Part shown: positions 88 through 28,957 of the stretch, in pieces
Numbering within the stretch: the first letter of the stretch is position 1
Layout: each line of letters starts with the position of its first letter
Source of the DNA: Escherichia phage pro147
Length of the DNA: 32,675 bases
Sequence record: NC_028896.1
Direction: 5' to 3' (one strand)
Made by a program: the position numbers and the translations under genes
Notes under the pieces: model-generated
Database searches by the model: none
Seen by the model: the letters and a program-made list of their open reading frames with translations, nothing else
What the model was told of the DNA's origin: nothing

Positions 88-121
88 CAAAAAAGCCCCC
101 TCGACTGAGGGGGCTTTCTGT
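88..121. terminator. Intrinsic terminator hairpin downstream of ogr (bidirectional)
   Basis: Perfect 9-bp stem agccccctc (94-102) / gagggggct (107-115) with 4-nt loop gact. An A-run precedes it on the plus strand (a T-run on the minus strand after the stem) and ttctgttt follows on the plus strand. Confidence 0.7.
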
Positions 122-2084: not shown

Positions 2085-4532
2085 TTAACCGTCATGCATC
2101 ATGCTGGCACGGGCGCGCGCACGTTTATCCCGCTCGTATTTTTCGAGCGCATCCTGTAACTGGCGGTCGAGCTGTGTCCCCGGCGCAGTACCACCCGTCA
2201 GGCTGATGTGATATTCGTTTTTACTCTGGTCCACATAAGAGCGGCCAGCCGGTGCCGTGACCGGCTGATAAGCCTGATAGCCTGCATAAGAGCTGGTCGC
2301 CGGAATATAACCACCGGTGCCATACGTGGCGGCATGAGTTCTGGCGGCGGTCTGGTCAAGTGTGTCTGACTCTTTGTTGATAACACCGAGTTTTTCCAGT
2401 ACCCAGTCAATACCGCTGCGCAGTTTGTTGAACGCATTAAGCGGCAGCATCAGCGCGTCAGCCAGTGCCTGCCCGAACATGACGCCCGTGTCACGGCAAC
2501 GGTTCAGGGTGTCCTGGGTGGCTTTAACCGGAGCAATCAGGTTTGTAAACCACTGCCACGCGGCCTGTAACTTTTCGCCCAGCCAGTCAAACATCGGTTT
2601 CAGTGGCGTGAACAGTTCCCCCACCGACGCAAAGGCCGCTTTCAGCCCTTCCACCACACCGCCAAAGAATGCGCTGACAGGCTCCCAGTATTTACGGATA
2701 AGCAACGCCCCGGCGACAATGGCAGCCACCACGGCCACAACCGGCCAGCTAATCGCCCCGATGGCCGTCATAACGGCACTACCAACCGTCGTGAAGATTG
2801 CCCCCATTGCGCCTGCTGCCGCGATGATGGCATTGATGCCGGTGATAACCGGCCAGGCTATGAGGCCAATGGCACCGATGACACCAGTCAGCGCCAGTGC
2901 ACCACCGACAATGATGCCGATGGTTGACGCCAGTGATTTGTTTTTCTGTATCCAGCCGTCGAGTTTTAACACATACTTTGTGGCCGTCTGCGTGAGATTA
3001 CGCAGTGCGCCTTCCTGTTGGTCAAACAGGTCAGTCCCCACCGCCTCATAAGCGGACTGAAACTCCTTAAAGTCACCGCCGAGGTTATCCTGCATGATAT
3101 TTACCAGCTCGGCGGTCTTCCCGTCTGAGGCTTTAAACGCAGCGGTCAGTTTGTCCAGCTTTCCGGTTGAGGCGGCAGTCATCAGCACGGCGGCGGCTGA
3201 GCTGGCCTCCTCCCCGAAAATAGTTTTCATGTATTCAGCCTGCTGGGCAGTACCGAGCCGGTTTTTCTCAAAACTGGCCTGCATTTCTTTCAGAATGGTA
3301 AATATTGGCCGGGTGTTTCCCTTGCTGTCTGAGGTTTTCACTCCAAGCTCTTTGAGTGCATCCCATGCTTTTCCCGTCGGTGCCTGCAGGCGGCTTAACA
3401 CGGCACGGCTTCCCGTCCCCGCCATTGAGCCTGTGATTTTTGCATCATGCAGCCCCCCGACCATTGCGGCGGTTTCTTCAATGCTGACACCGGCATTTTT
3501 TGCCACAGGTGCGGCATAGGTCAGCGCATCGCTCATGCCGTCAAAATCGGCGGCGGTTTTGTTCATCGTCATGGAGAGAACATCCCCGATATGAGCGACC
3601 TTATCGTTTGAAAGCTGAAAGGCGGATTTCATCCCCATCAGCAGGGCGGCGTTTTCTTCCATCGTGCGGCGGTTCGCCAGCGCCATATTCAGCGTGACCG
3701 GCGTTGCCGCCTGAATGGCATCAACATCCCCACCCGCTTTCGCGATGATTATCTGTGCACCGGCCGCATCATCCGCCGAGGCTGCGGTATTGTCACCGAG
3801 CTGGCGCGCCTGTTTGCGTAGTGCGGTCATTTCGGCGGAGTCTTTTGCCACTCCGAGCACGGCCTGCAATTCTGAGTTTTTCTGCGCAAACTCATAACCG
3901 GGCATCAGCAGCTTAACTCCGGCCATCGTTCCCGCCGCCGCAATCCCCACACCGGCAGCGCCCACCGAGGCCATATTTCCGGCCAGTTCCTTTCCGGCCT
4001 GATAACGCTGTTTGACTGCGTTAAGTTTTGCCTGTTGCGCACTGACACGCGCCAGCGCATCACGCTGACGGTTAAGCTGTGCGGTGGTTTCACTGATACG
4101 GTTTTTCAGTCCCTGCTCATCATGTGCAAGATTGCGGGTATTAATTCCCACAGCGGCCAGTTCCCGCTGCTGGCGTTTAACGGAATCCGTCAGGCGGTTA
4201 TATTTCGCCTGTAAGTCCTCCGCCGCACGCTTTGCGGATTCCAGCACTTTCGCCTGAGCACGGGTCGGACGTTCGGTGTTTTTAAACTGTGTGGCAAGGG
4301 CTTCGGCTTCCTGCCGAGCCTTTTCAAGTGCATGACCAGTCACGGCGAGCTGTGCACTGGTCTTGCGGAATCCCTCAATACGGGATGCGTGACCGTTCAG
4401 CTCGCGCAGTGATTTTTGTGTTTCCCGGATATCCCCCGACAGCGACTTGCTCGCTGTGCGGATGGATTTAAACGGGCGGGATGCCTGGTCAACAGCCCTG
4501 AGCAATACCTGTAATTTTACATTGTTACTCAT
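2085..4532 (-). CDS. T: Tail tape measure protein T, 815 aa
   Basis: 815-aa ORF with coiled-coil-like N-terminus and hydrophobic Ala/Gly-rich central segments typical of tape measure proteins; position between E/E' and U. Confidence 0.9.
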   Translation of the reverse strand: MSNNVKLQVLLRAVDQASRPFKSIRTASKSLSGDIRETQKSLRELNGHASRIEGFRKTSAQLAVTGHALEKARQEAEALATQFKNTERPTRAQAKVLESAKRAAEDLQAKYNRLTDSVKRQQRELAAVGINTRNLAHDEQGLKNRISETTAQLNRQRDALARVSAQQAKLNAVKQRYQAGKELAGNMASVGAAGVGIAAAGTMAGVKLLMPGYEFAQKNSELQAVLGVAKDSAEMTALRKQARQLGDNTAASADDAAGAQIIIAKAGGDVDAIQAATPVTLNMALANRRTMEENAALLMGMKSAFQLSNDKVAHIGDVLSMTMNKTAADFDGMSDALTYAAPVAKNAGVSIEETAAMVGGLHDAKITGSMAGTGSRAVLSRLQAPTGKAWDALKELGVKTSDSKGNTRPIFTILKEMQASFEKNRLGTAQQAEYMKTIFGEEASSAAAVLMTAASTGKLDKLTAAFKASDGKTAELVNIMQDNLGGDFKEFQSAYEAVGTDLFDQQEGALRNLTQTATKYVLKLDGWIQKNKSLASTIGIIVGGALALTGVIGAIGLIAWPVITGINAIIAAAGAMGAIFTTVGSAVMTAIGAISWPVVAVVAAIVAGALLIRKYWEPVSAFFGGVVEGLKAAFASVGELFTPLKPMFDWLGEKLQAAWQWFTNLIAPVKATQDTLNRCRDTGVMFGQALADALMLPLNAFNKLRSGIDWVLEKLGVINKESDTLDQTAARTHAATYGTGGYIPATSSYAGYQAYQPVTAPAGRSYVDQSKNEYHISLTGGTAPGTQLDRQLQDALEKYERDKRARARASMMHDG

Positions 4533-4952
4533 TCGTGTTTCCGCTTCGCCGGAGCGCCTTTTCGCGCCATGTGATGAGTTCGGTCAGGCTCATGGGATAC
4601 AGTTCTGATGGCGGCCAGTGAAATATCACTGCCACATCCGCCATCAGGTCATCGACCGAGAGATTTTTCGGGAACGTCACTGCACCGAGTTCGGCGACAA
4701 AAAACCGACCACCTTACCGGCCAGCGCCACAAGGTCAGGCAGTTCCAGCGCGGCGACTTCCTGCTCGGTCAGCATCGGTGCCGTCATGCGCGGCAGCACT
4801 TTAATCAGTGCATCGACTTCGGAGTTTGCGACCGCAGCCAGACTGACACCGCGCAGCGTCCCCGCACTGGGTTTCATCAGCGTGACCTGTTCGATAACCT
4901 GCTCACCACGCTTGACCGGATTGGTCAGGGTAATCACATTTTCTTTGTTCAT
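4525..4952 (-). CDS. E': Tail assembly chaperone E+E' fusion produced by -1 programmed ribosomal frameshift (about 142 aa)
   Basis: Manual translation of the -1 frame after the TTTTTTG slip site gives VAELGAVTFPKNLSVDDLMADVAVIFHWPPSELYPMSLTELITWREKALRRSGNTNE, then TAA at 4525-4527 overlapping the T start codon. Total 85+57 = 142 aa, the size recalled for P2 E+E'. Confidence 0.75.
4677..4952 (-). CDS. E: Tail assembly chaperone E, 91 aa
   Basis: 91-aa ORF immediately upstream of T; ends ...GFLSPNSVQ with the slippery heptamer T TTT TTG (minus-strand sense of 4698-4704) near its 3' end. Confidence 0.88.
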   Translation of the reverse strand: MNKENVITLTNPVKRGEQVIEQVTLMKPSAGTLRGVSLAAVANSEVDALIKVLPRMTAPMLTEQEVAALELPDLVALAGKVVGFLSPNSVQ

Positions 4953-5008
4953 GGTTTTCTCACTTCTTAATCAGGGTTAACCGGTCAGCCAGGCTGACCG
5001 GATGAAAA

Positions 5009-5527
5009 TCACAGGCCGATATTGCGGCGGTGTTGCTCCAGCCGGTCGACGCCGTTCACCTTCTCAATCATGTTGATGGTGTCGATTTCGACCAGCTCCT
5101 TACCGTCCATCGTCAGCCGGAAATAGGTGCAGACCACGGAGATTTTCGACTCGGTGTCTTCTCCCTGTTTACCCTCGCCGGTGTCGATTTCTTTCTGACG
5201 TCCACGCATGACCACCTCGACGGCCACCGTTTCGCCGGTATCGTCGCGCTGGTAAGAGCCTGCAAAACGAATCGGCACGGCATCCACACCGGTTGCGGCG
5301 TAAAGCTCCCAGATAACCGAATCCGGGAAGCCACCCAGCGACCACTCCATTGACAGCGCATCGTCATCAAGGCCGAGGTCTACCGGTGCGCTGCCGTTCA
5401 TCCCCGCACCGCGATAGTTTTCGAGCTTACGGGTCAGTTTTGGCAGCGTGACGGACTTTGCAACGCCCTGATAGCTGTAGCCGTTCAGAAAGACGTTCAT
5501 TAACTTGAGTTTGCGCGGCATTGCCAT
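5009..5527 (-). CDS. FII: Tail tube protein FII, 172 aa
   Basis: 172-aa ORF directly downstream of the sheath gene; length and position match P2 gpFII. Confidence 0.9.
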   Translation of the reverse strand: MAMPRKLKLMNVFLNGYSYQGVAKSVTLPKLTRKLENYRGAGMNGSAPVDLGLDDDALSMEWSLGGFPDSVIWELYAATGVDAVPIRFAGSYQRDDTGETVAVEVVMRGRQKEIDTGEGKQGEDTESKISVVCTYFRLTMDGKELVEIDTINMIEKVNGVDRLEQHRRNIGL

Positions 5528-5539
5528 CGGTCAGGCTCC

Positions 5540-6730
5540 TTAATTGCTTTTAACCGAAGTGACCAGATTTGCCAGGTATTTATCGGTAATACGCTGGCGC
5601 AGGGTCAGGTTTTCGAGAGGAGGCACCGGGGTATAGTCATAGTCGATATACAGTTTTCCGGCCTTGAGGGTTTCCGCATCGTTGGATTCTTCGCTGAACC
5701 AGCAGGTCGCATCCACGATATAGCCGTTTGTTTTCAGCTCACGGAATTTGGCATTGATGCCGTCAACGATGTCGCGAATCAGCGTTGCGGTGATGGGCTT
5801 GTCCACCGCCCACATATGCGCCTCAGCCATCGTGTCGGCCAGCACCTGCGCGGTGCGGGTGTAGTTTTCAAAGAGGAACAGCGGGTCATCAGAGCAGGTA
5901 CGGTTACCCCAGAATCGGAAACCGTCGCGGCGAATCAGCGTAGTGACGCCTGACTCGTTAAGCAGGTCAGCATCGGTGCCGGACTCCTGCAAATCCCAGA
6001 ATACAGATGCGCTGATGCCGGTAACACCGTTTACCCCGACGTTGGACAGCGTTTTATGCCAGCCCTGCTCCTGGTCGATTTTAGCGCGCAGACCCAGCGC
6101 ACGGGCGGTGGCATACGCGGTGGCGGTGGTACTGTTGACCGTATCCCATGCGAGGAAATCCGGCCAGATGACCATCAGCTCACGCTGGCTGAAATTCTGG
6201 CGGTAGGCTTTCACCTCGGAAATGGTTTTACAGCCCCATGCGCTGATATACCCGAAAGCGCGCAACTTCTGACACACTGATGCCAGTGCAACTGCCACCT
6301 CTTTGGTGTCCAGTCCCGGTACGCCGAGAATACGCGGTTTAACACCGGTTACCGACTCCGCCGCCAGCAGGGCTTTCAGTCCGGTGTACTGACCGTTTTC
6401 GTCGGTGGTGCCGATGATATTGGAAACGGTCTGCGCGAGTTTCGTTTCCTCGTCGTCGCCGGTGCCGTCTTCCACACGCACAACAACGGTGACCGGTTTT
6501 GACTGGTCGGCGATGGCCTGCAACGCTGCCGCCAGCGTGCCTTTTTTACCGGCCTTTGCAATTGCGCTCTGCACATTGGTAATCAGCACCGGTTTATTGA
6601 GGGGGAAGATTTCCGCATCCGCATCGCTGGCCGTGCAGACCAAGCCGACAATGGCAGTGGATACGGTGGAAATGACGCGGGTGCCGTCGTTAATCTCCAG
6701 CACCTGCACGCCGTGATGATAGTCACTCAT
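5540..6730 (-). CDS. FI: Contractile tail sheath protein FI, 396 aa
   Basis: Translation from MSDYHHGVQVLEI... matches P2 gpFI as recalled. The internal ATG at 6728-6730 is preceded by GGAG; the track ORF extends to 6751 with 7 extra residues. Confidence 0.9.
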   Translation of the reverse strand: MSDYHHGVQVLEINDGTRVISTVSTAIVGLVCTASDADAEIFPLNKPVLITNVQSAIAKAGKKGTLAAALQAIADQSKPVTVVVRVEDGTGDDEETKLAQTVSNIIGTTDENGQYTGLKALLAAESVTGVKPRILGVPGLDTKEVAVALASVCQKLRAFGYISAWGCKTISEVKAYRQNFSQRELMVIWPDFLAWDTVNSTTATAYATARALGLRAKIDQEQGWHKTLSNVGVNGVTGISASVFWDLQESGTDADLLNESGVTTLIRRDGFRFWGNRTCSDDPLFLFENYTRTAQVLADTMAEAHMWAVDKPITATLIRDIVDGINAKFRELKTNGYIVDATCWFSEESNDAETLKAGKLYIDYDYTPVPPLENLTLRQRITDKYLANLVTSVKSN

Positions 6731-6834
6731 CCGTTTAACTCCGTGGTTCATGGGTGCAACTATTTTCTGTTGTGCAGAGCATGAGACGCTATTTGACCTG
6801 GCTGGTCAGTGGATGAAACAACAGATAAAGAAAA

Positions 6835-6853
6835 GGCGGGCAATCCGCCCGCC
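6835..6853. terminator. GC-rich hairpin between the FI start and the cargo gene; likely terminator/insulator
   Basis: 7-bp stem ggcgggc (6835-6841) / gcccgcc (6847-6853), loop aatcc; A-rich run to the left (T-run on the minus strand after the stem). Confidence 0.5.
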
Positions 6854-6989
6854 TGTCCTGATTTGAACTTACTCATTTTCCGACTGACAATTTACATAGC
6901 CAAAACACTATCATTTCCCTGACGTTAAGTTGTATCTTTGATAGGATTAAAAAATGTATAGATAGCTTATACTACTGAGGGAACAAAAA

Positions 6990-7799
6990 ATGACGCAAAT
7001 TAGTGAACGATGGAAGCACAACGGCATTACTAAAGGTTATTGCAATATTTGTGGAAAATATGACCTCCTCACAAAAGATCATGTTCCTCCAAAGTGTGCC
7101 ATAACCTTAGGTCCTGTTCTTCAGAAAACAGTTAGCGAATTTTTTGGTGTTCAGGAACCAGTTAAACCATTAAATGCTAAAAACGGCTCTTATTTCAAAA
7201 CCATTTGCAGCCACTGTAACAATAAGGTGTTAGGTGGACTCGACGTTGCAATTGAAAATGTAGCAAAGTCCTTTAAAGAACAGTTGAGTCAATATATGAA
7301 TGGTATGAGTGTATTTCCATTCATTAGAATACCTTTTGATAGCATATCTTTCACTAAGGCTATGATTGGACACGTGCTATCGGCAACTTCAGTTGAAGAT
7401 TGTAAAAAAGAACCCGTAGATAGCCCCTTCTATACACCTTTAAAAGATTATGTTTTGGGTAAGAATCCAAGTTTTGAGGAGACTCATGATATTTACTACT
7501 GGTTTTACCCACACAGAATGCACATATCAGCTCAAAGTGTAGCATTTATGAACGAAGGACATGTAGCATTTATTTGTGCTTTACATTTTTTTCCTATCGG
7601 TTTTATTATCACAATTAAAAATGAAGGAATATACCCTGCACACTCAACAAAATTAGAGCTTAAAGATAAATTCCTTACATTTAACATGACATCTGTAAAT
7701 TATGAGTATACGACATTTCCATTTGTAAATCTTAAGGGAAACCAAATGTATGCTATAAGCAACGGCCATACATGTGTGAGTTATCCAATAATTAAGTGA
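6990..7799 (+). CDS. Hypothetical 269-aa protein with N-terminal HNH-nuclease-like motif, in the P2 Z/fun cargo position; candidate anti-phage / superinfection-exclusion protein
   Basis: AT-rich ORF on the strand opposite all flanking late genes; ATG at 6990 preceded by GAGGGA. Motif string CNICGK...KDHVPPK...N...CSHCNN resembles the CxxC / DH / N / CxxC signature of HNH endonucleases. The C-terminal ~180 aa were not recognised. Confidence 0.6.
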   Translation: MTQISERWKHNGITKGYCNICGKYDLLTKDHVPPKCAITLGPVLQKTVSEFFGVQEPVKPLNAKNGSYFKTICSHCNNKVLGGLDVAIENVAKSFKEQLSQYMNGMSVFPFIRIPFDSISFTKAMIGHVLSATSVEDCKKEPVDSPFYTPLKDYVLGKNPSFEETHDIYYWFYPHRMHISAQSVAFMNEGHVAFICALHFFPIGFIITIKNEGIYPAHSTKLELKDKFLTFNMTSVNYEYTTFPFVNLKGNQMYAISNGHTCVSYPIIK

Positions 7800-7853
7800 C
7801 TGCTAGATCATAAAATCGACGCAAGTTCACTTTCTACATATACCATCTATAAT

Positions 7854-7877
7854 GTCCGCTCTTGGCACAGAGCGGAC
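7854..7877. terminator. Hairpin between the convergent cargo gene and tail fiber assembly gene G
   Basis: Perfect 9-bp stem gtccgctct (7854-7862) / agagcggac (7869-7877), loop tggcac; sits in the 127-bp gap between two convergent stop codons. Confidence 0.55.
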
Positions 7878-7926
7878 TGTCAGATTAGGCTTTACTCTAT
7901 GCAATAGATATGTAAGCTCATACAAC

Positions 7927-8457
7927 TTATTGCGGCATTTCCGGCCATTCAGGATTTGCAGGATCCACACGGCTGACCAGAACGCTGTAGCGTTCCCATG
8001 CTTCCAGTCGTGTGCGCTCCTCGTCTGTTGCCATATTCAGCCTGACAGCGCGTTCCAGCGGCTGGATGACTGATTCAGCTTCGGAAAGCAATGCGGCCTT
8101 TTGTAATTCGGCCTGTTGTTGCTGTTCGTCTGCCGTATAAATCCGTTTAACTACAGCTCCATCCTTAAACATCCACTTACCGGAATCATCAGCGCGGCGG
8201 TTGGCTGTAATATCGGAAACCTCAACGACGCTAAAACCTTCAGGGTTAAGCGTGGAGGCATCTTTAGTGATGGCGACAATAATATTATTCTCGTCATAAA
8301 GAATTTTTATTGTGTCTTCCTGAAAGTTCTTTAATTCCTCGTACCAGTTTTTACCGTCTTCGGACCATAACCAGATAACATCAAAATTCTTTGTTAGCTG
8401 GTATTGTTCGACAGTTTTAGGGTTTCCAGACTTAATATTTTTTAAATGCTGCATCAT
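7927..8457 (-). CDS. G: Tail fiber assembly protein G, 176 aa
   Basis: 176-aa ORF immediately downstream of the tail fiber gene; position and length match P2 gpG. Confidence 0.85.
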
Positions 8458-10503
8458 TTACACCTGTGCGACGTTATACCATGTGCCATTGATGTATTTT
8501 TGTATTGGCCTGAATACTGCGGGGTCATCACCATCGACTTCACCGACAATACCAAGCCCGGTAATTACGTGCCCTGCTTTCTCATACATCACCCCTTTCT
8601 GCATGGTCTGGACAACACGTGTGCCAAGTCTGATATCTCTCACATAGCGGGAATCAAAGTTACCGTAATCCGAGGGATTAACACGCCCCGTAATATTTAT
8701 GGTCTTATTACTTTGAATGCTTCCGGAAACAAAGCGCATAACATGGACGTTATTAGCATAAACATCCAGATTACCATCGCCATTTTGTTTAAATCCGGTA
8801 TCGTTATCACCAAGAACAATAGAGTTCCCACCCAACGCGTTATTCGTGCCAAGTGCCAGCCCGCCATCAATCCTGGCACCATTACCAACAGACACAACTC
8901 CTGTTCTTAAGTTGATGCCGAATGGCCTTAATGGCCCAATATCTCCATTTTCACCCTCATTTTCTCGTGTAGGGATGATATACAGGTTTTCTTCAGAACG
9001 GCGAAAAATAGCCCCAAAAGATGAATTAAATATCCTCAGTGCATTGACTGTAGATATTTTTACTTCACTGCTGAAAAGGGCTTTAACAAGAACATACAGA
9101 GCATCCCATTTAAGATTCATCAGGTCTTTTGTTGTGGTGCTCTGGCGACTTCTCCATTTGAAATATTCATTGCCGTTGTCACCTGTTTCAAACCACATAT
9201 ATGAATCAGTATCGCTGTCGGCATCATTTTTAAATCCAATCTTTGCCCAGTCAGTATTTCGAATCCAGGCAAGGATTGAGTCGTTTTCAAAAGTAAGCCC
9301 ACCGGACAAGGTATCGCCATTCTTTTGCACCGCGTTCCTGGCCCTGTTTACCGTTTCCTGCAAACCGAGGTATTCGATAACGGCAGTAACGGTCGCTTTA
9401 GCCAGAATATCCCGTCCGACTTTTGTCAGGGTTGCCAGGCTGGCAACATCATTCCCCGTAAAATACGGAAACCTGTCTGCCGCAGTAGCAAGCCCCGCCA
9501 GCGCCGTCAAAGTGGCATCTTTCGGTTGCTTACCCGCAAGCGCATTAGTCATGGTGGTAGCAAAATTCGGGTCATTGCCCAGCGCCGCCGCCAGCTCGTT
9601 CAGCGTATTCAGTGCGTCAGGCGACGAGTCTACAAGGGCGGCAATCGCGGCCATAACGAAAGCCGTGTTTGCGATCTGAGTATTATTCGTTCCCTGTCGC
9701 GCAGTTGGCGTCGTTGGCGTTCCGGTCAGTGCAGGGCTGTTTAATGGCGCTTTCTTGTTCGTTTCATCCATTACCGTCTTAACGGCTTTTGGTGTTGCGG
9801 CGAGCGTCTCAGACATGCTGTTGGTCGCACTACTTAGCTGGACAAGACCTTTTCGCGCTGTGGTAGCGTCCTGTGCGGTATATTTCCCGTTAGCAAGGTC
9901 ATATGCGGCCTTAACCGCTTTCGGCGTTGCGGCCAGTGTTTCAGACGTGCTGTTGGTCGCATTGCTTAACTGAGTAAAACCTTTTGCGGTCAGCGAGGCG
10001 TCCGGGTGACGTCGTGACTGTTCATGCTCTGCAATTTTGTCATCAACGTAATCCTGCGTCGCCATCACCGTTGTGGTGTCAATGGTCAGCTCCACTGAGG
10101 CCACACTGCTGACGATGATGACCATGCGGCAGGTCTGCGAACGCCCTGAGCCTTCGGCAAGGGTAGGTTTATAACTTTCGGCCATGTTCGCCACGGCAAT
10201 TAACGTTCCCGCATCATCGTACAGGCCAAGCTCTCGCATCCAGAAACCGCCCACCTCCGGCGGAATAACCAGCTCTGCGATAATATAATTACTGTTTCGT
10301 TTGTCCTGGCTGATTTTGTTCAGCGCATGTCGCCAGACTTCGTGGATAAGCCCGGTCTGTCCGGCATCCGGGACAGGCAATTTACCACCGCCATCCCCGA
10401 CGGCCATCGTGGTAATGTTGACCTTCCGCCCTCCCGGCGCGGTTGCCGCTGCCAGCTTTGCTGCACCGGCAGTGGTGATAACGGTTTTGAATTTTGTGCT
10501 CAT
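8458..10503 (-). CDS. H: Tail fiber protein H, 681 aa
   Basis: 681-aa ORF after baseplate gene I; contains the duplicated ...SETLAATPKAVK... motif and a variable C-terminal half as expected for P2-type tail fibers. Confidence 0.9.
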   Translation of the reverse strand: MSTKFKTVITTAGAAKLAAATAPGGRKVNITTMAVGDGGGKLPVPDAGQTGLIHEVWRHALNKISQDKRNSNYIIAELVIPPEVGGFWMRELGLYDDAGTLIAVANMAESYKPTLAEGSGRSQTCRMVIIVSSVASVELTIDTTTVMATQDYVDDKIAEHEQSRRHPDASLTAKGFTQLSNATNSTSETLAATPKAVKAAYDLANGKYTAQDATTARKGLVQLSSATNSMSETLAATPKAVKTVMDETNKKAPLNSPALTGTPTTPTARQGTNNTQIANTAFVMAAIAALVDSSPDALNTLNELAAALGNDPNFATTMTNALAGKQPKDATLTALAGLATAADRFPYFTGNDVASLATLTKVGRDILAKATVTAVIEYLGLQETVNRARNAVQKNGDTLSGGLTFENDSILAWIRNTDWAKIGFKNDADSDTDSYMWFETGDNGNEYFKWRSRQSTTTKDLMNLKWDALYVLVKALFSSEVKISTVNALRIFNSSFGAIFRRSEENLYIIPTRENEGENGDIGPLRPFGINLRTGVVSVGNGARIDGGLALGTNNALGGNSIVLGDNDTGFKQNGDGNLDVYANNVHVMRFVSGSIQSNKTINITGRVNPSDYGNFDSRYVRDIRLGTRVVQTMQKGVMYEKAGHVITGLGIVGEVDGDDPAVFRPIQKYINGTWYNVAQV
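9778..9989. repeat. Imperfect tandem duplication (two ~80-bp units, period 132 bp) inside tail fiber gene H
   Basis: Unit at 9778-9857 (cttaacggcttttggtgttgcgg...) and unit at 9910-9989 (cttaaccgctttcggcgttgcgg...); they encode the repeated QLSxATNSxSETLAATPKAVK peptide. Confidence 0.7.
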
Positions 10504-10513
10504 TATTCCTCAC

Positions 10514-11044
10514 TTATCCGGGGTAAACCGTAATTACATCGCCGTCATAAGCCACACCACCGGCGAACAGGTAGCCGGGAATGTCCCGGGTAATGTTCAG
10601 GCCAATAAGGTGGCGGCTTGCAGGTTTGGCATCAGCAATCAGCCGTTCCATTTCCTGATACATTGCCTCTGTGATACCGCTTTCCAGTACACCAATATCA
10701 AGCCGGAAGGTGCCTGGCGGGTCACTGTTTTCCCACCACTCCGTCACGTTAATGAGATAGCCGAGCGGCTCCACCACACGCCGGATTGCGCCGATAGTGC
10801 CTTTATGACAGTGGATGAAATAGGCATCGCGGATAACGGCACGTTTGGTCGCTTCCGGCCACTTTTCATCCCACCTGTCGACCGAAAACGCCCACGCCAG
10901 CCACGGCAGCAGATTTGCCGGGCAGGTGTCCGGGTTCCACAGTTCACGAATCCTGACCGGCGTTTTTTCAATTTCCGCACAGGCTTTTGCGGCGGCAACT
11001 TCAAGCGGTGATGAGCCGGTCGGCAGCAGTCGCGAATCACTCAT
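10514..11044 (-). CDS. I: Baseplate protein I, 176 aa
   Basis: 176-aa ORF between J and H; length and position match P2 gpI. Confidence 0.9.
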   Translation of the reverse strand: MSDSRLLPTGSSPLEVAAAKACAEIEKTPVRIRELWNPDTCPANLLPWLAWAFSVDRWDEKWPEATKRAVIRDAYFIHCHKGTIGAIRRVVEPLGYLINVTEWWENSDPPGTFRLDIGVLESGITEAMYQEMERLIADAKPASRHLIGLNITRDIPGYLFAGGVAYDGDVITVYPG

Positions 11045-12929: not shown

Positions 12930-12995
12930 AACGGGAAGGATGCCGCCGGGTCATACCGGCGGCAATGTGACGATGAGGTGTCGGGGATGGCACAA

Positions 12996-16462: not shown

Positions 16463-17206
16463 TTAACTGGCTTTCTTTTTCGGGCGTCCACGTTTTGCCG
16501 GTGTCACGCTCCGGGTCTTACGCGGGGCGCGGGTGGCCGCTTTGGGCTGCGGCTCCGGCTTCGGTTTCAGCTCCCGCTCCAGTCGTTCAATCTCTTTTTT
16601 GACACCTGCCTGACAGTCGAGCTGTGTCGCACGTTGCAGGTGAGCCAGCGCACCGGCGGCATCACCACCATCACGCAGAAGCAGACCGGTGATTTTGTGC
16701 AGCTTTGCGCGCACTTCATCAGGCATGTCAGCCGTGGCGGTCAGTTCAAGGGTCTCCGTCAGCAGGCGGGTATCCACAGACTCACCGGCAGCGTGGGCGC
16801 GCATGGCCGCTAGCGCCACCTCCTCGGTGAACATGTATGGCGGGGTGCGGCGGTGTTTACCCGGCATGGTCAGACCGTACTTCAGGGCATAACGGGCAAT
16901 CTCCAGCGCACCGCTAATATCGCCGGTATCCAGACGCCACAGCATGACCGTCATCAGAATGTCATCCTGTGCACCTTTGCCCTGCTCCAGCACGCCGTTC
17001 ACCCACGGCAACCAGAACGGCAGCAGTTCGCGTTTTTTCGCGGCCTTCAGCTCTTTTGAATAAATCGCTTTCAGTGTGCGCTGGTCTGCGGCGAGCTTAA
17101 CCAGCATCTGCTCATAGACAGTTGCATGTCGCAGCGGGGCGGCTTCCCGCTGCGCGGTCATCGCTGCCGAGACCCGCATCATGTGGCGCTGTGCGGGACT
17201 CGTCAT
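16463..17206 (-). CDS. M: Terminase endonuclease (small) subunit M, 247 aa
   Basis: 247-aa ORF between N and L with a basic C-terminal tail; matches P2 gpM length and position. Confidence 0.9.
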   Translation of the reverse strand: MTSPAQRHMMRVSAAMTAQREAAPLRHATVYEQMLVKLAADQRTLKAIYSKELKAAKKRELLPFWLPWVNGVLEQGKGAQDDILMTVMLWRLDTGDISGALEIARYALKYGLTMPGKHRRTPPYMFTEEVALAAMRAHAAGESVDTRLLTETLELTATADMPDEVRAKLHKITGLLLRDGGDAAGALAHLQRATQLDCQAGVKKEIERLERELKPKPEPQPKAATRAPRKTRSVTPAKRGRPKKKAS

Positions 17207-26680: not shown

Positions 26681-28957
26681 TTATATGTTTGTTGAGAATC
26701 CCGGCCACTCATCAGCGACCGGATACGTGAATTTTTCCCCGTCATAATTTACGGTCGCGCCACGCGCCAGCGCCTCAAGCTCCCATCGCTGTGGCCTGAT
26801 ACCGTTCTGAGCAAGGTCAACGCGGATACGGGTAATTTGCATTCGTTCCGACCGGGTCAGTCTGGCCGATGGCGCTATTTCATGCGGTTTTAACGGGCTT
26901 CCGTTTCTTTGCTGACGGTTTGGTCTTCTCAGACCGTGTTTTAATGCACCTCTGAGCGCCCTCACGACCTCCTGGTCATTCCATTCGATAACACCGTCAT
27001 CTACCAGATTAAGCACTGCTGCGGCGTGCTCAGAAGGTGTGGGAGCCGGTAACGAAGTATCACCACCGGTGAGCTTTCCACAGTTATTGACAGGACTCCG
27101 AGGCGCGGCGATGCCGCTTTTTAAAGTCAAAGGCTCAACGACCAGCACTTTCGGAACAATGCGCCAGTCCGTCGTTCTGGTGATATGAATATGACGCGCG
27201 CCGAGATGCGGCGCGTAAATGCCGACCACTCTCTCGACTTCTTCCTCGTACTCGTTAACTTCATCCGACGGACTACGGGCGACCCTGACAGTCTGACAAT
27301 CGCGCGGGACATTTGCCCCACCCTGCGCGCTGATATACAGCGCAAAATCGCCACTGTCTGCGGCAGCGCGTGCAGCCTCGACGCGTTCGTCAAACTCATC
27401 AGCAATGCTGACGCCGCGAGGTAATTTGCGTAGTTCACGGTAAGCCCCCATTGTCGGCAGGCCAACCGTTTTAAATTGCGGAATGCGCCACGTTGACGCC
27501 CATGCGGTAACAGCCGCGGCAGTGTCTTTCAGCGGCCTGCCGGTATCGTTATCGAGCTGACCATCCAGTGCATAGCCGTCGATGTTTTTTGAAATGTATT
27601 TCGCGATATACCCCGCAGCACCGCCCCGGTTAAGGTGTTTTGCCTGAAAACGGTTTCGCGCGGCTCCTCTTTCGTCGCCATCCTCTTTGAGCGCATAGCG
27701 ACGCATGATTTCGATAATCTGGTTACGCTGGCGCGGATTACAAAAAAGCATCATATGCCAGTGCGGCGTTCCGTCGTGGTGTGGCTCGACGACACGCAAA
27801 CCGTAGACCTGTAAATCATTATCCTTGAATGCCGTGCGCATCAGGCTCCAGATACGGCAGAGATAACGCTGCGCATCCTTTGGATTAAATGCCTCATCGT
27901 TCCAGCCGTGATTTAGCTGGACGGTTTTACTTTCGCCTTTTCTGACCTGACGTGTCGGGTGATACTTTGACGGCGCGGTCAGCGTGATAAACATCCCCAC
28001 ATCACCCTCTGCTGCGGCGTAACGCTCAATACCGGCAATGGTGTTCATCAGCTCCATCCGGCGAATTTCAGGATTAGAAATACTGCCCATCACCTTACTG
28101 ATAAGGTCGATGCGCTCGCCGGTTTCCCTGTTTTCAAGGTCACACGATTTAAGAAATTCCAGATTTGCCTGGCGGCGCGCACGCACATCACGAATGGCAT
28201 GTTTACTGGCATAAGGAGAACGGTCTTTATTGACCTCCCCGACAGCTATCAGTAACGCCTCATGCCAGCGCATACGTTGGCCTTTAAGCTGATGAGTCCA
28301 CCACTCATCGTTAAACAGGCGGGCAATGGCAGAATATGCCTGCCTCGTGGTCATCTGTCCTTTACGGTATTTTTTCCAGTAGAGCGGGGAAATATTGAAA
28401 GCACGTGCAGCGCCAGCAACATGACCATAGAGGTGAGCCTGCGCCTCATCCGTAAACAGCGATTCTTTTTCGCCATGTGCATCAACCCAGGCATCGCAGA
28501 GTTCCTCATACATCATGAAAAGCTGCGATGAGATACGGGCAGCAAACTTTTTCAGCTCCTTGTCATTCATTCCCGGCAGGCGCGCATAGTGGTCACGCTC
28601 TGCCAGAAACAGCAACGACGCGTCGGTGTTCATTTCATGGCGCTGATTCACACGCTCAATGCGCGGCCATAAACGACGCTGAAAAGTGGATGTGAGGAAA
28701 TAAAACCCGTGCACCGGGCTTTTATTGCGCCGGATGTAGTCATAACGTGAAGTAAACAGCGAGCGCAAAAAGTAAGGCAGGCGGTTAATCGTGGATAAAA
28801 CACCTTGCACCTGACGCATCTCGTCACGTGTAAGGGGTCTTTCGCGCCCGACAGCCTCGCGTGGCGCGTTCCATGCATAAGCACCGGTAAACGTCTTACC
28901 GGTGCCTGCGGCAAATGCTGACGGAGGGACAAAACGCCCGGAGGCTTTAACGGCCAT
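26681..28957 (-). CDS. A: Replication initiation protein A (rolling-circle nickase), about 758 aa from ATG 28957
   Basis: Translation from MAVKASGRFVPPSAFAAGTGK... matches the recalled P2 gpA N-terminus. The track ORF starts 14 codons upstream at a TTG (28999). The last few codons lie at the boundary with the cargo island. Confidence 0.9.
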   Translation of the reverse strand: MAVKASGRFVPPSAFAAGTGKTFTGAYAWNAPREAVGRERPLTRDEMRQVQGVLSTINRLPYFLRSLFTSRYDYIRRNKSPVHGFYFLTSTFQRRLWPRIERVNQRHEMNTDASLLFLAERDHYARLPGMNDKELKKFAARISSQLFMMYEELCDAWVDAHGEKESLFTDEAQAHLYGHVAGAARAFNISPLYWKKYRKGQMTTRQAYSAIARLFNDEWWTHQLKGQRMRWHEALLIAVGEVNKDRSPYASKHAIRDVRARRQANLEFLKSCDLENRETGERIDLISKVMGSISNPEIRRMELMNTIAGIERYAAAEGDVGMFITLTAPSKYHPTRQVRKGESKTVQLNHGWNDEAFNPKDAQRYLCRIWSLMRTAFKDNDLQVYGLRVVEPHHDGTPHWHMMLFCNPRQRNQIIEIMRRYALKEDGDERGAARNRFQAKHLNRGGAAGYIAKYISKNIDGYALDGQLDNDTGRPLKDTAAAVTAWASTWRIPQFKTVGLPTMGAYRELRKLPRGVSIADEFDERVEAARAAADSGDFALYISAQGGANVPRDCQTVRVARSPSDEVNEYEEEVERVVGIYAPHLGARHIHITRTTDWRIVPKVLVVEPLTLKSGIAAPRSPVNNCGKLTGGDTSLPAPTPSEHAAAVLNLVDDGVIEWNDQEVVRALRGALKHGLRRPNRQQRNGSPLKPHEIAPSARLTRSERMQITRIRVDLAQNGIRPQRWELEALARGATVNYDGEKFTYPVADEWPGFSTNI

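What the first reader, a model, noticed from the sequence alone, without database searches (positions are those of the whole stretch)
6835..7877. HNH-like cargo gene is bracketed by two strong hairpins
The hairpins ggcgggc-aatcc-gcccgcc (6835-6853) and gtccgctct-tggcac-agagcggac (7854-7877) sit on either side of the cargo gene. Together they would isolate it from antisense read-through of the tail-fiber operon (upstream on the minus strand) and protect the FI promoter region. This looks like a modular cassette that could be swapped among P2-like phages.
Basis: seen in the sequence. Interest (0 to 1): 0.35.

Follow-up and report, generated by a model that had tools for sequence, protein, structure and literature searches.

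The report
Terminator plus cassette-boundary repeat, P2 hotspot
The two hairpins around this P2-like prophage cargo gene are real but different: one is the phage's own late-operon terminator, and the other is a conserved palindromic repeat marking where accessory (often anti-phage) gene cassettes are swapped between unrelated prophages.

Summary
Both hairpins exist at the stated coordinates and are far stronger than chance. They are not a matched pair.

Hairpin 1 (6835-6853) reads on the minus (late-gene) strand as a canonical intrinsic terminator with tail TTTTCTTTAT. It belongs to the phage backbone. In P2-like phages with an empty G-FI slot it sits 5 nt after the G stop codon. It lies directly upstream of the PF late promoter.

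Hairpin 2 (7854-7877) has no U-tract on either strand. It is the "R" member of a pair of inverted-repeat sites of 9-12-bp arm, 6-nt spacer and arm. These sites frame the known Z/fun hotspot of P2-like phages. The partner "L" site has been deleted in this phage. More than 30 unrelated AT-rich cassettes sit between the same frames.

The same cassettes, this one included, also occur between the same two sites in lambdoid prophages. One R-site junction also joins a P2-like remnant to an E. coli chromosomal island. In each case the junction maps to the spacer.

Inverted repeats flanking fun were proposed as recombination sites in 2004 (Nilsson et al., known to me only through a citing review). The enzyme is unknown.

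Its twin-insulator idea holds only for hairpin 1.

The parts
5540..6730 (-). FI tail sheath gene. The true start is MSDYHH at 6730; the mechanical ORF start at 6751 lies upstream of it.
   Evidence: ORF list; phrog_23 tail sheath, E = 6e-159; the P2 FI annotation starts at the homologous ATG.
6754..6827 (-). PF late promoter region. The transcription start is at about 6754-6756 and the activator (Ogr-type) binding site at about 6799-6827. Both are placed by distance from the FI ATG in the annotated P2 record, so they are approximate.
   Evidence: P2 annotation of the activator site and F-operon start. This stretch is conserved in P2-like loci. The mapping is inferred, not measured.
6824..6854 (-). 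Hairpin 1: an intrinsic terminator of the late V...H-G operon. The stem is 6834-6841/6847-6854, the loop is 5 nt, and the tail TTTCTTTATC is at 6833-6824.
   Evidence: It is the only strong terminator-like call in 5000-11000 that lies in an intergenic gap. It directly follows the G stop in empty-slot phages. It is conserved in nearly all P2-like loci, with a variable loop, one compensatory pair and a retained T-run. More distant relatives have hairpins of different sequence plus a T-run at the same place.
6855..6913 (.). Left frame of the hotspot: backbone sequence shared by P2-like phages that carry different cargo.
   Evidence: Alignment A1. Megablast left-flank matches end at query 314, which is window 6913. 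One search shows the same.
6903..6913 (.). Deletion junction AAACACTATCA. In relatives with the same cassette, two direct copies of AAAC[G/A]CTATCA flank about 77 nt that contain the L site (CTGACA-GTCTGCTTT-GAGCGA-AAAGCAGAC-TGTCAC). That stretch is missing here.
   Evidence: Side-by-side sequences of the window, L085 and L084.
6914..6989 (+). AT-rich 5' region of the cargo gene, which travels with the cassette. No promoter was called.
   Evidence: The cassette match to the lambdoid prophage begins at window 6903. No promoter-like call falls here.
6990..7799 (+). Cargo gene of 269 aa, an uncharacterised family (phrog_21495). It probably has an N-terminal HNH-type zinc/nuclease motif and a beta-rich C-terminal domain with no known fold match. 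It is a candidate anti-phage gene by position only.
7851..7880 (.). Hairpin 2, the R-type inverted-repeat site: AAT-GTCCGCTCT | TGGCAC | AGAGCGGAC-TGT. The inner (cassette-side) arm is 7851-7862, the spacer is 7863-7868, and the outer (backbone-side) arm is 7869-7880.
7878..7926 (.). Right frame of the hotspot, 49 nt between the R site and the G stop codon. It includes a decayed inverted half-site at 7890-7915, which reads CTTTACTCTGTGCCATAGATATG in relatives and is further mutated here.
7927..8457 (-). G, the tail fibre assembly gene and last gene of the late V operon.
   Evidence: phrog_136, E = 3e-82.
8458..10503 (-). H, the tail fibre gene (context).
   Evidence: annotated homologues in L-413C and Wphi.

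Best explanation
The window is a P2-like (Peduovirus) prophage with its late genes on the minus strand. The cargo gene occupies the known Z/fun hotspot between G and FI.

Hairpin 1 is the backbone's Rho-independent terminator for the V-W-J-I-H-G late operon. It sits immediately upstream of the PF activator site. The hotspot frame and cassette were inserted between the G stop codon and this terminator. During lytic growth, late transcripts are therefore expected to pass hairpin 2, run antisense across the cargo, and end at hairpin 1 (inferred).

Hairpin 2 is not a terminator. It is the R member of a pair of about 30-bp sites made of a 9-12-bp arm, a 6-nt spacer and an inverted arm. The R spacer is TGGCAC and the L spacer is GAGCGA in window orientation. 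L is essentially an inverted copy of R with 2 of 6 spacer bases different.

The backbone owns the outer arm and the spacer. Each cassette brings its own inner arms. Cassettes are exchanged by recombination whose crossover falls within or next to the spacer at R and at L, which keeps cassette orientation fixed. This happens among P2-like phages and between them and lambdoid prophages. One R-site junction with an E. coli chromosomal island is a single crossover (a truncation), not a cassette exchange.

Shown: the anatomy, the breakpoints, and shared cassettes in two unrelated phage backbones.

Inferred: the exchange is conservative and site-directed. The likeliest agent is a recombinase acting on arm-spacer-arm sites, and that enzyme is unidentified.

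In this particular phage the L site was deleted between 11-bp direct repeats, so the cassette is probably now fixed in place.
For: Hairpin 1:
- It is a terminator-like call on the minus strand only: 9 pairs, 7 of them GC, with tail TTTCTTTATC.
- Six empty-slot phages read G stop + 5 nt + the same hairpin + T-run + PF + FI.
- It is conserved with variable loops and one compensatory pair, GACGGGC/GCCCGTC. More distant relatives carry other GC hairpins plus a T-run at the same place.
- The P2 annotation places the PF activator site right after it.

Hairpin 2:
- It has no U-tract and is not called as a terminator.
- Its outer arm and spacer are constant in 49 P2-like loci, while 33 different cargo flanks begin at the inner arm. 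The L site shows the mirror picture, with 31 different flanks.
- The spacers are the most conserved positions, at 1.5-2.0 bits.
- The arms show no compensatory covariation. Counts at the variable pair are C/G 64, C/A 47, T/G 24 and T/A 4.

Cassette exchange:
- P2-like L018 and a lambdoid prophage (L084) share 1033 bp at 99.7 % identity, bounded by the L and R sites, with unrelated flanks.
- P2-like L040 and phage Tritos share 1853 bp at 98 %.
- Backbone-specific SNPs lie in the outer arms and cassette-specific SNPs in the inner arms. This maps the crossover to 8-11 nt that include the spacer.
- A third backbone, an E. coli island with DUF2254/BCCT genes, has its own R-type site. In strain S10 it is joined to a P2 remnant exactly there.
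- 51 distinct L..R cassettes have about 0.36 GC and are never inverted relative to L->R.
- Arrays of 2-4 cassettes are separated by R-16/18 nt-L doublets, and 25 of 28 such viral loci are non-P2.
- Five of 10 tested proteins match PADLOC defence or candidate-defence models: DRT UG17, PD-T4-3, PDC-S32, a SIR2/ThsA-like protein and PDC-S25 (nine from viral cassettes, one from a Pantoea site-flanked locus).

Literature:
- The slot is a recognised second P2 defence hotspot (PMC9519451).
Against: - No recombinase was found. No recombinase family recurs next to the sites; the only mobility gene that recurs is an IS3-family transposase, in 6 loci.
- The arms do not resemble XerC/D, invertase or integron core sites. 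That comparison is from my own knowledge and was not computed.
- The outer-arm-constant, inner-arm-variable pattern would also arise from ordinary or Red-type recombination using the 24-30-bp sites as short homology.
- In Alphaproteobacteria the same arms carry loops of 6-8 nt and appear multi-copy. That looks more like a REP-type repeat than a fixed-spacer recombinase site.
- Termination at hairpin 1 and read-through at hairpin 2 are predictions. No transcript data were available.
- I could not read Nilsson et al. 2004. Identity of its repeats with these sites rests on a citing review.
Confidence: 0.7

Rival explanations
1. Both hairpins are transcriptional insulators (terminators) that belong to the cassette. 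They shield it from antisense late transcription and protect PF.
For: Both hairpins are stable and lie in intergenic gaps between convergent or divergent genes. Hairpin 1 really is terminator-like and adjacent to PF. A hairpin without a U-tract can still stabilise a 3' end or pause polymerase (general knowledge).
Against: Hairpin 1 is present without any cassette and does not travel with the cargo. Hairpin 2 has no U-tract on either strand. Its loop is more conserved than its stem, and its arms show no compensatory change. Genes inside L..R cassettes lie on either strand.
Confidence: 0.12
2. The R and L palindromes are REP/REPIN-like repeats. They would be structural or mRNA-stabilising elements, possibly served by a RAYT-type HUH transposase or bound by gyrase. 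Cassette swapping is then a by-product. Because the repeats are alike, they act as short homology patches for RecA-, Red- or RecT-type or microhomology-mediated recombination. No dedicated site-specific recombinase is involved.
For: The same palindrome occurs in more than 120 loci of Alpha-, Beta- and Gammaproteobacteria. Several MAGs carry it on multiple contigs and at contig ends. It is often paired 18-20 nt away with a second palindrome that has the same arms but other loops (CGGGGGT, TGACCC). R-linker-L doublets could fold into one long hairpin, as REPINs do. Lambdoid phages encode Rad52-like recombinases that use short diverged homology (PMC3945230 and PMC2327257, listed). No recombinase was found.
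Against: P2 is not known to encode a general recombinase (own knowledge). Every mapped junction falls in the 8-11 nt around the spacer, not elsewhere in the 24-30-bp similarity. The spacers are near-invariant across P2, lambdoid and island contexts. No GTAG-type REP head is present, and no RAYT was looked for successfully.
Confidence: 0.25
3. The hairpins are chance inverted repeats with no function.
For: Short inverted repeats are common; 14 pairs were listed in 1.3 kb at a low threshold.
Against: The z-scores are -3.4 to -5.1. There is a seven-fold or greater excess of perfect stems of at least 9 bp in the window. Both hairpins are conserved in dozens of related phages.
Confidence: 0.01

Closest known systems
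Z/fun region of phage P2 and its flanking inverted repeats (Nilsson, Karlsson & Haggard-Ljungquist 2004, as cited in PMC8987985); also called the second P2 defence hotspot (Vassallo et al. 2022)
   Same: The slot is the same, between G and FI. P2 itself carries both sites around fun(Z): the R site GTCCACTCT-GTGCCA-AAAGCGGAC and the L site TTCCGCTTC-TCGCTC-AAAGGAAAC. Cargo varies, and the same genes are found elsewhere between the same repeats.
   Different: The cargo here is a different, uncharacterised 269-aa protein. This phage has lost the L site. Not stated in the sources I could read, and seen here, are four things: the same site pair in lambdoid slots; R-linker-L doublets in multi-cassette arrays; crossovers mapping to the spacer; and the wide spread of the palindrome outside enterobacteria.
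Rho-independent (intrinsic) transcription terminators of phage late operons
   Same: Hairpin 1 has a GC-rich 7-8-bp stem, a 5-nt loop and an immediate T-run. It sits at the end of an operon, and its structure is conserved while its loop is free to vary.
   Different: In reference P2 the annotated V-operon terminator is another hairpin inside the fun cassette, and the hairpin 1 homologue is degenerate at -6.1 kcal/mol. Here hairpin 1 is the only canonical terminator between G and FI. Hairpin 2 does not qualify.
Cassette exchange between heterospecific tyrosine-recombinase sites (lox/FRT RMCE in engineering; pdif modules on Acinetobacter plasmids, served by XerC/D)
   Same: The sites have inverted arms around a 6-nt spacer. 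Modules are flanked by two sites in inverted orientation with different spacers. The same module occurs in different replicons with junctions in the sites, and module orientation is preserved.
   Different: No recombinase is known, and there is no sequence resemblance to dif/pdif (own knowledge, not computed). Adjacent cassettes are separated by a doublet of sites rather than sharing one site.
REP / REPIN / BIME repeats and their RAYT transposases
   Same: These are short imperfect palindromes that occur as inverted doublets with a short linker. They are intergenic and apparently multi-copy in some Alphaproteobacteria.
   Different: There is no GTAG head. The loop is conserved in the phage sites. 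The sites delimit exchangeable gene cassettes, and no RAYT is linked to them.
Integron cassette arrays (attC sites, IntI)
   Same: Arrays hold one- to three-gene, AT-rich, often defence-related cassettes separated by about 66-nt structured repeats.
   Different: There are no RYYYAAC/GTTRRRY cores and no adjacent integrase. The crossover is in the centre of each small palindrome. The arrays sit inside prophages.

Membership tests
Intrinsic terminator (hairpin 1) | GC-rich stem of at least 5 bp with a loop of 3-8 nt | tested here: met
   8-9 pairs, 7 of them GC, with a loop of 3-5 nt. Energy is -20.1 kcal/mol, z = -3.8.
Intrinsic terminator (hairpin 1) | U/T-rich tract immediately 3' of the stem on the transcribed strand | tested here: met
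   TTTCTTTATC follows on the minus strand only. The + strand has no T-run.
Intrinsic terminator (hairpin 1) | Lies at the end of an operon, with structure rather than loop sequence conserved in relatives | tested here: met
   It sits 5 nt after the G stop in empty-slot phages. Loops vary (GAATT, TGATT, GGATT, GAGTT, TTATT), there is one compensatory pair, and distant relatives have other hairpins plus a T-run.
Intrinsic terminator (hairpin 1) | Transcripts actually end there | not testable with these tools
   No transcript data are available.
Intrinsic terminator (hairpin 2) | U/T-rich tract immediately 3' of the stem | tested here: not met
   The + strand tail is TGTCAGATTA and the minus strand tail is ATTATAGATG. 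The terminator scan does not list it.
P2 Z/fun-slot inverted repeats (Nilsson 2004) | Inverted repeats flank the variable cargo between G and FI in P2-like phages | tested here: met
   An R site was found in 49 loci and an L site in 47, P2 itself included. In this window only R survives.
P2 Z/fun-slot inverted repeats (Nilsson 2004) | The same repeats flank the same genes outside P2-like phages | tested here: met
   Lambdoid prophages and phages (L084, L086, L087, L003) and an E. coli island (L241).
P2 Z/fun-slot inverted repeats (Nilsson 2004) | Sequence identity with the repeats as published | not testable with these tools
   The paper is not held. Only a citing sentence was read.
Tyrosine-recombinase-type core site / heterospecific cassette exchange | Two inverted arms of 9-13 bp around a spacer of 6-8 bp | tested here: met
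   Arms are AAy-GTCCGCTnn / nnAGCGGAC-rTT around TGGCAC or GAGCGA.
Tyrosine-recombinase-type core site / heterospecific cassette exchange | The crossover falls in or at the edges of the spacer | tested here: met
   Junctions map to 8-11-nt windows that contain the spacer, at both R and L in two P2-versus-lambdoid cassette pairs and at R in the island junction. The resolution cannot exclude the adjacent arm bases.
Tyrosine-recombinase-type core site / heterospecific cassette exchange | A cognate recombinase exists | tested here: inconclusive
   No recombinase family recurs among 1069 ORFs next to sites. Host-encoded enzymes were not surveyed.
REP/REPIN | Short imperfect palindromes occurring as inverted doublets with a short linker | tested here: met
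   R-16/18 nt-L doublets in 28 viral loci and several enterobacterial genomes, and paired palindromes in Alphaproteobacteria.
REP/REPIN | High copy number per genome and an associated RAYT gene | tested here: inconclusive
   Several contigs per MAG carry it.
Integron attC | R''/R' cores RYYYAAC / GTTRRRY and an IntI integrase nearby | tested here: not met
   No such cores are in the consensus. No integrase recurs next to the arrays.
HNH nuclease (cargo protein) | Significant match to an HNH-family profile | tested here: not met
   The window protein matches HNH_5 at E = 0.14 and 12.5 bits, against a cut-off of 27.5. Family members reach at best E = 0.007. There are no PDB sequence or Foldseek hits.
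HNH nuclease (cargo protein) | Conserved CxxC...DH...N...CxxC-type metal and catalytic motif | tested here: met
   C18, C21, D30, H31, P33, P34, C73, C76 and N77 are invariant in 40 diverse homologues.

The most novel reading that the evidence does not exclude
Hairpin 2 may be one site of a widespread, so far unassigned site-specific cassette-exchange system. Pairs of heterospecific arm-spacer-arm palindromes (R and L), and their R-linker-L doublets, would act like integrase-less 'attC' sites. They would shuttle defence cassettes between hotspots of P2-like phages, lambdoid phages and chromosomal islands, using a host- or phage-encoded recombinase that recognises a motif conserved from Alphaproteobacteria to enterobacteria. 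That would supply the missing mechanism for the rapid swapping of defence genes at prophage hotspots.
Probability: 0.35. Interest if true: 0.8.

Novelty: new member of a known kind. Interest (0 to 1): 0.5.

Why it matters
The G-FI slot of P2-like phages is a recognised reservoir of anti-phage genes. [quoted passage not shown]

The same pair of sites frames cassettes in unrelated lambdoid phages. An R-type site also sits in a chromosomal island, joined there to a P2-like remnant.

This gives a concrete and testable handle. There is a 30-bp site, two spacer classes and predicted crossover positions. They can be used to find the enzyme, to predict where new defence genes sit, and possibly to engineer cassette exchange in temperate phages.

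For this particular prophage the practical reading is modest. The cargo is an uncharacterised HNH-like candidate defence gene. It lies inside the 3' untranslated tail of the late tail-fibre operon. Having lost its left-hand site, it is probably no longer exchangeable.

Tried and rejected
- Rfam, permissive thresholds, on the window region and on five loci with sites: no family.
- PADLOC, NCBIfam and Pfam on the cargo: nothing above threshold.
- Search for a second copy of either site, or a site-like sequence such as a possible gpA nick site, elsewhere in the window: none.
- Search for a recombinase that recurs next to sites by clustering 1069 ORFs from 148 loci: the largest clusters looked, by their N-terminal sequences only, like alphaproteobacterial transporter binding proteins and lambdoid late genes; an IS3-type transposase-like ORF recurred in 6 loci. 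None of these was profile-scanned.
- Sigma-54 promoter reading of TGGCAC: rejected, because the -12 element is absent.
- Serine invertase (gix/hix) and XerCD (dif) sites: no resemblance, judged from memory and not computed.
- Full-text searches for the site sequence returned only primers.
- Nilsson 2004, Odegrip 2006 and Haggard-Ljungquist 1992 are not held in the library.
- Cargo homologues were not found next to the sites in the 120 genome-scan loci.
Full report
**What is there**

The window is a P2-like prophage with its late genes on the minus strand:
- T: 2085-4532
- E: 4677-4952
- FII: 5009-5527
- FI: 5540-6730
- G: 7927-8457
- H: 8458-10503

These come, with annotated relatives. Between FI and G lies one + strand ORF of 269 aa, at 6990-7799.

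They fold at -17.6 to -20.5 kcal/mol, with z-scores of -3.4 to -5.1. The window holds 7 loci with perfect stems of at least 9 bp, where about 0.8 is expected.

**Hairpin 1 is a backbone terminator**

Only on the minus strand is the stem followed by a T-run (AGGCGGGCGGATTGCCCGCCT TTTCTTTATC). It is the only strong terminator-like call in the region that lies in an intergenic gap.

I fetched 80 P2-like loci through their FI protein. Six of them have an empty G-FI slot. There the sequence reads G stop (CAATAA), 5 nt, the same hairpin, the T-run, the PF region and then FI.

The hairpin is present in nearly all P2-like loci, with or without cargo. Its loop is free to vary. There is one compensatory stem change (GACGGGC/GCCCGTC), and the T-run is always kept. 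More distant relatives have hairpins of different sequence plus a T-run at the same place.

In the annotated P2 record the PF activator-binding site begins right after the homologous T-run. Hairpin 1 is therefore the terminator of the V...H-G late operon and an insulator in front of PF. The hotspot was inserted between the G stop and this terminator.

In reference P2 this hairpin is degenerate (-6.1 kcal/mol). The annotated V-operon terminator there is a different hairpin, inside the fun(Z) cassette.

**Hairpin 2 is a cassette-boundary repeat, not a terminator**

It has no U-tract on either strand and is not called by the terminator scan. Comparison with other phages shows what it is.

In the late-gene orientation the slot reads as follows:
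- G stop, then 49 nt ending in ATCTGACA;
- the R site, GTCCGCTCT | GTGCCA | xxAGCGGAC-rTT;
- the cargo;
- the L site, AAy-GTCyGCTyy | TCGCTC | AAAGCAGAC, followed by TGTCAGAT;
- about 60 more nt, then hairpin 1.

In 49 loci the outer arm and the 6-nt 'loop' are constant with the backbone. Meanwhile 33 different, unrelated cargo sequences begin at the inner arm. The L site gives the mirror image, with 31 different flanks.

The two frames are inverted copies of each other. ATCTGACAGTCCGCTCTGTGCCA matches ATCTGACAGTCTGCTTTGAGCGA at 19 of 23 positions, and the spacers differ at 2 of 6. The spacers are the most conserved positions, at 1.5-2.0 bits. The two arm positions next to the spacer on the cassette side are the least conserved.

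Across 139 sites from many genomes the variable arm pair shows no compensatory pattern. Counts are C/G 64, C/A 47, T/G 24 and T/A 4. Sequence is conserved rather than pairing, which points to recognition by a protein more than to an RNA or DNA hairpin function.

P2 itself has both sites around fun(Z).

**This phage has lost the L site**

Relatives with the same cassette (L018, L085) carry about 77 nt that include the L site, between two direct copies of AAAC[G/A]CTATCA. The window has one copy, at 6903-6913, and nothing in between. Hairpin 1 is therefore not the partner of hairpin 2. The real partner is gone.

**Cassettes move between unrelated elements at these sites**

The window's cassette (6903-7877, 94.5 % identical) sits in a lambdoid prophage of E. 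coli 120899. It lies between hokD and a DUF977/replisome-organiser gene.

P2-like L018 and that prophage share 1033 bp at 99.7 %, bounded by the L and R sites, with unrelated flanks. P2-like L040 and phage Tritos share 1853 bp at 98 % in the same way.

Lambdoid phages Tritos and Evi and the 120899 prophage have their own constant outer halves (taacYttcta-GTCCGCTTT-GAGCGA ... TGGCAC-AAAGCGGAC-aaccacgcta) around three different cargos.

Backbone-specific differences lie in the outer arms: GTCTGCTTT against GTCCGCTTT, and AGAGCGGAC against AAAGCGGAC. Cassette-specific differences lie in the inner arms, one or two bases from the spacer. Each crossover is thus confined to 8-11 nt that contain the spacer.

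A third backbone gives the same result at an R site. This one is a single-site junction that truncates the prophage, not a two-site exchange. An E. coli island carrying DUF2254 and BCCT genes has an R-type site (GTTTGCTTT-TGGCAC-AAAGCATAC). In strain S10 a truncated P2-like prophage is joined to that island exactly there.

**The wider family**

In IMG/VR, 28 loci contain an R-16/18 nt-L doublet, and 25 of them are not P2-like. Arrays of up to three or four cassettes occur as L-cassette-R, linker, L-cassette-R and so on.

I collected 51 distinct L..R cassettes. Their GC content is about 0.36. Each holds one to three genes, on either strand. They are never found inverted relative to L->R.

Five of ten tested proteins match PADLOC defence or candidate-defence models: DRT UG17, PD-T4-3, PDC-S32, a SIR2/ThsA-like protein and PDC-S25. 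Nine of the ten came from viral cassettes. The PDC-S25 match is to the first 60 residues of a protein from a Pantoea genome locus flanked by two R-type sites.

A scan of one genome per species for the R motif stopped at its 120-locus limit. Besides Pantoea, Serratia, Klebsiella, Leclercia, Citrobacter and others, it found many Hyphomicrobiales, Xanthobacteraceae, Pseudolabrys and Nitrosomonadaceae. The palindrome there agrees even at bases the pattern did not force. It appears multi-copy. It is paired 18-20 nt away with a second palindrome that has the same arms but other loops. That resembles REP doublets and remains unexplained.

**Mechanism**

Shown: the anatomy, the breakpoints, and the presence of identical cassettes in two unrelated phage backbones.

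Inferred: the exchange is directed by the sites.

The architecture is that of recombinase core sites: inverted 9-12-bp arms, a 6-nt asymmetric spacer, two spacer classes in inverted orientation, preserved cassette orientation, and crossovers at the spacer. It works like cassette exchange between heterospecific lox sites or like pdif modules.

However, no recombinase was found. The same junction pattern could also come from short-homology recombination at conserved REP-like repeats. I put about 0.45 on a dedicated site-specific enzyme given that the sites are the exchange points. I put about 0.9 on the sites being the exchange points.

**Comparison with the literature**

The slot is the classical Z/fun region, also named a second P2 defence hotspot (PMC9519451; bioRxiv 10.1101/2024.10.15.618418).

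[quoted passage not shown] 2004 (PMC8987985). I could not read the original.

The latest large survey does not mention repeats, hairpins or terminators. It calls the swapping mechanism unresolved.

The kind of element is therefore known. Four things appear to go beyond the sources I could read:
- the same site pair in lambdoid slots;
- the doublets and cassette arrays;
- the mapping of crossovers to the spacer;
- the phylogenetic breadth of the palindrome.

**The cargo**

It belongs to phrog_21495, of unknown function. It has no PADLOC, NCBIfam or significant Pfam hit. Homologues of about 270 aa occur across Gammaproteobacteria and are annotated 'metal-binding protein' or, wrongly, 'chaperonin'.

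Invariant residues C18, C21, D30, H31, P33, P34, C73, C76 and N77 fit an HNH-type zinc/nuclease finger. Sub-threshold HNH_5 and Endonuclease_7 hits in family members agree with that. The AlphaFold model is confident (pLDDT 85) but has no PDB neighbour. A defence role is a guess from position only.

**Verdict**

The swappable module is real and hairpin 1 is an insulating terminator, but hairpin 2 is a recombination-boundary repeat whose partner has been deleted.

As an instance it is a new member of a known kind. The broader reading, an unassigned cassette-exchange system, is worth following up.

Noticed in passing
genome-scan loci L091-L210 (for example L126 478-1700 and L127 2984-3640): The palindrome (A)ATGTCCGCTwT-TGGCAC-AAAGCGGACAT is multi-copy in Hyphomicrobiales, Xanthobacteraceae, Pseudolabrys and Nitrosomonadaceae MAGs. 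It is often at contig ends and paired about 18-20 nt away with a second palindrome that has the same arms but loops CGGGGGT or TGACCC. It looks like a REP-doublet family sharing arms with the enterobacterial phage sites.
   Followed up: partly
window 7826-7853 (+): A promoter-like match, TTCACT-N16-TATAAT (10 of 12), ends exactly at the first base of hairpin 2 and points into it and into the 3' end of G in antisense. It is conserved in the lambdoid copy of the cassette. It could be chance.
   Followed up: no
window 7890-7915; L084 about 4487-4510; L086 about 2862-2885: Twelve nt outside the R site, both the P2 and the lambdoid frames carry a decayed inverted half-site, CTyTACyCTGTGCCAyArAwATG. 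This suggests both frames descend from one ancestral doublet. In the window it is further mutated (CTATGCAAT).
   Followed up: partly
L008, L009, L010, L016, L021, L028, L032, L034, L035, L044, L047, L056, L058, L063, L068 (about 250 nt upstream of FI): A group of P2-like phages with near-identical FI has, in place of the hotspot frame and hairpin 1, the 3' end of a gene on the same strand ending ...LSTLYKKFPSSATKNKL. It looks like a serine DNA invertase for an invertible tail-fibre segment. This was judged by eye, not tested.
   Followed up: no
L212 440-467 and 2328-2356 (phage P2, NC_001895): Reference P2 has a weakened hairpin 1 (GGTGAGCGAATTGCCCGCC, -6.1 kcal/mol). It also has an annotated bidirectional terminator inside the fun(Z) cassette, as if the backbone terminator decays when the cassette brings its own.
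   Followed up: partly
L188, L189, L191, L194, L228, L238; also H66 (E. coli PigCaeca_2) and L241 2637-3799: IS elements lie next to or inside site-flanked cassettes in several genomes: IS3-family transposases in six loci, IS5 in one E. coli hit, and IS3 beside the island R site. The palindromes may attract insertions.
   Followed up: no
window 92-117, 4981-5001, 12941-12964, 17130-17154, 28881-28905: Five further perfect hairpins of 9-11 bp in the window (for example AAAGCCCCCTC-GACT-GAGGGGGCTTT at 92-117 and CCGGTCAGC-CAG-GCTGACCGG between E and FII). By position they are probably further operon-end or inter-cistronic terminators.
   Followed up: no
window 4525-4680 and 4677-4952 (-): The small ORF overlapping the 3' end of E has the layout of the P2 E/E' -1 frameshift pair that is annotated in the P2 record.
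   Followed up: no
L108 1421-5069 and 5568-6572 (Pantoea sp. AS142): Two R-type sites flank a two-gene unit (594 aa plus 450 aa; the first 60 residues of the latter match PADLOC PDC-S25). It lies directly beside an ORF that by eye looks like a P4-type integrase. The site family may therefore also frame cargo in satellite- or island-type elements.
   Followed up: partly
window 7863-7869 (minus strand GTGCCAA): The R spacer plus one base equals, from memory, the 7-bp spacer of the R64 shufflon sfx sites used by the Rci tyrosine recombinase. The arms do not match. This is probably coincidence and was not tested.
   Followed up: no
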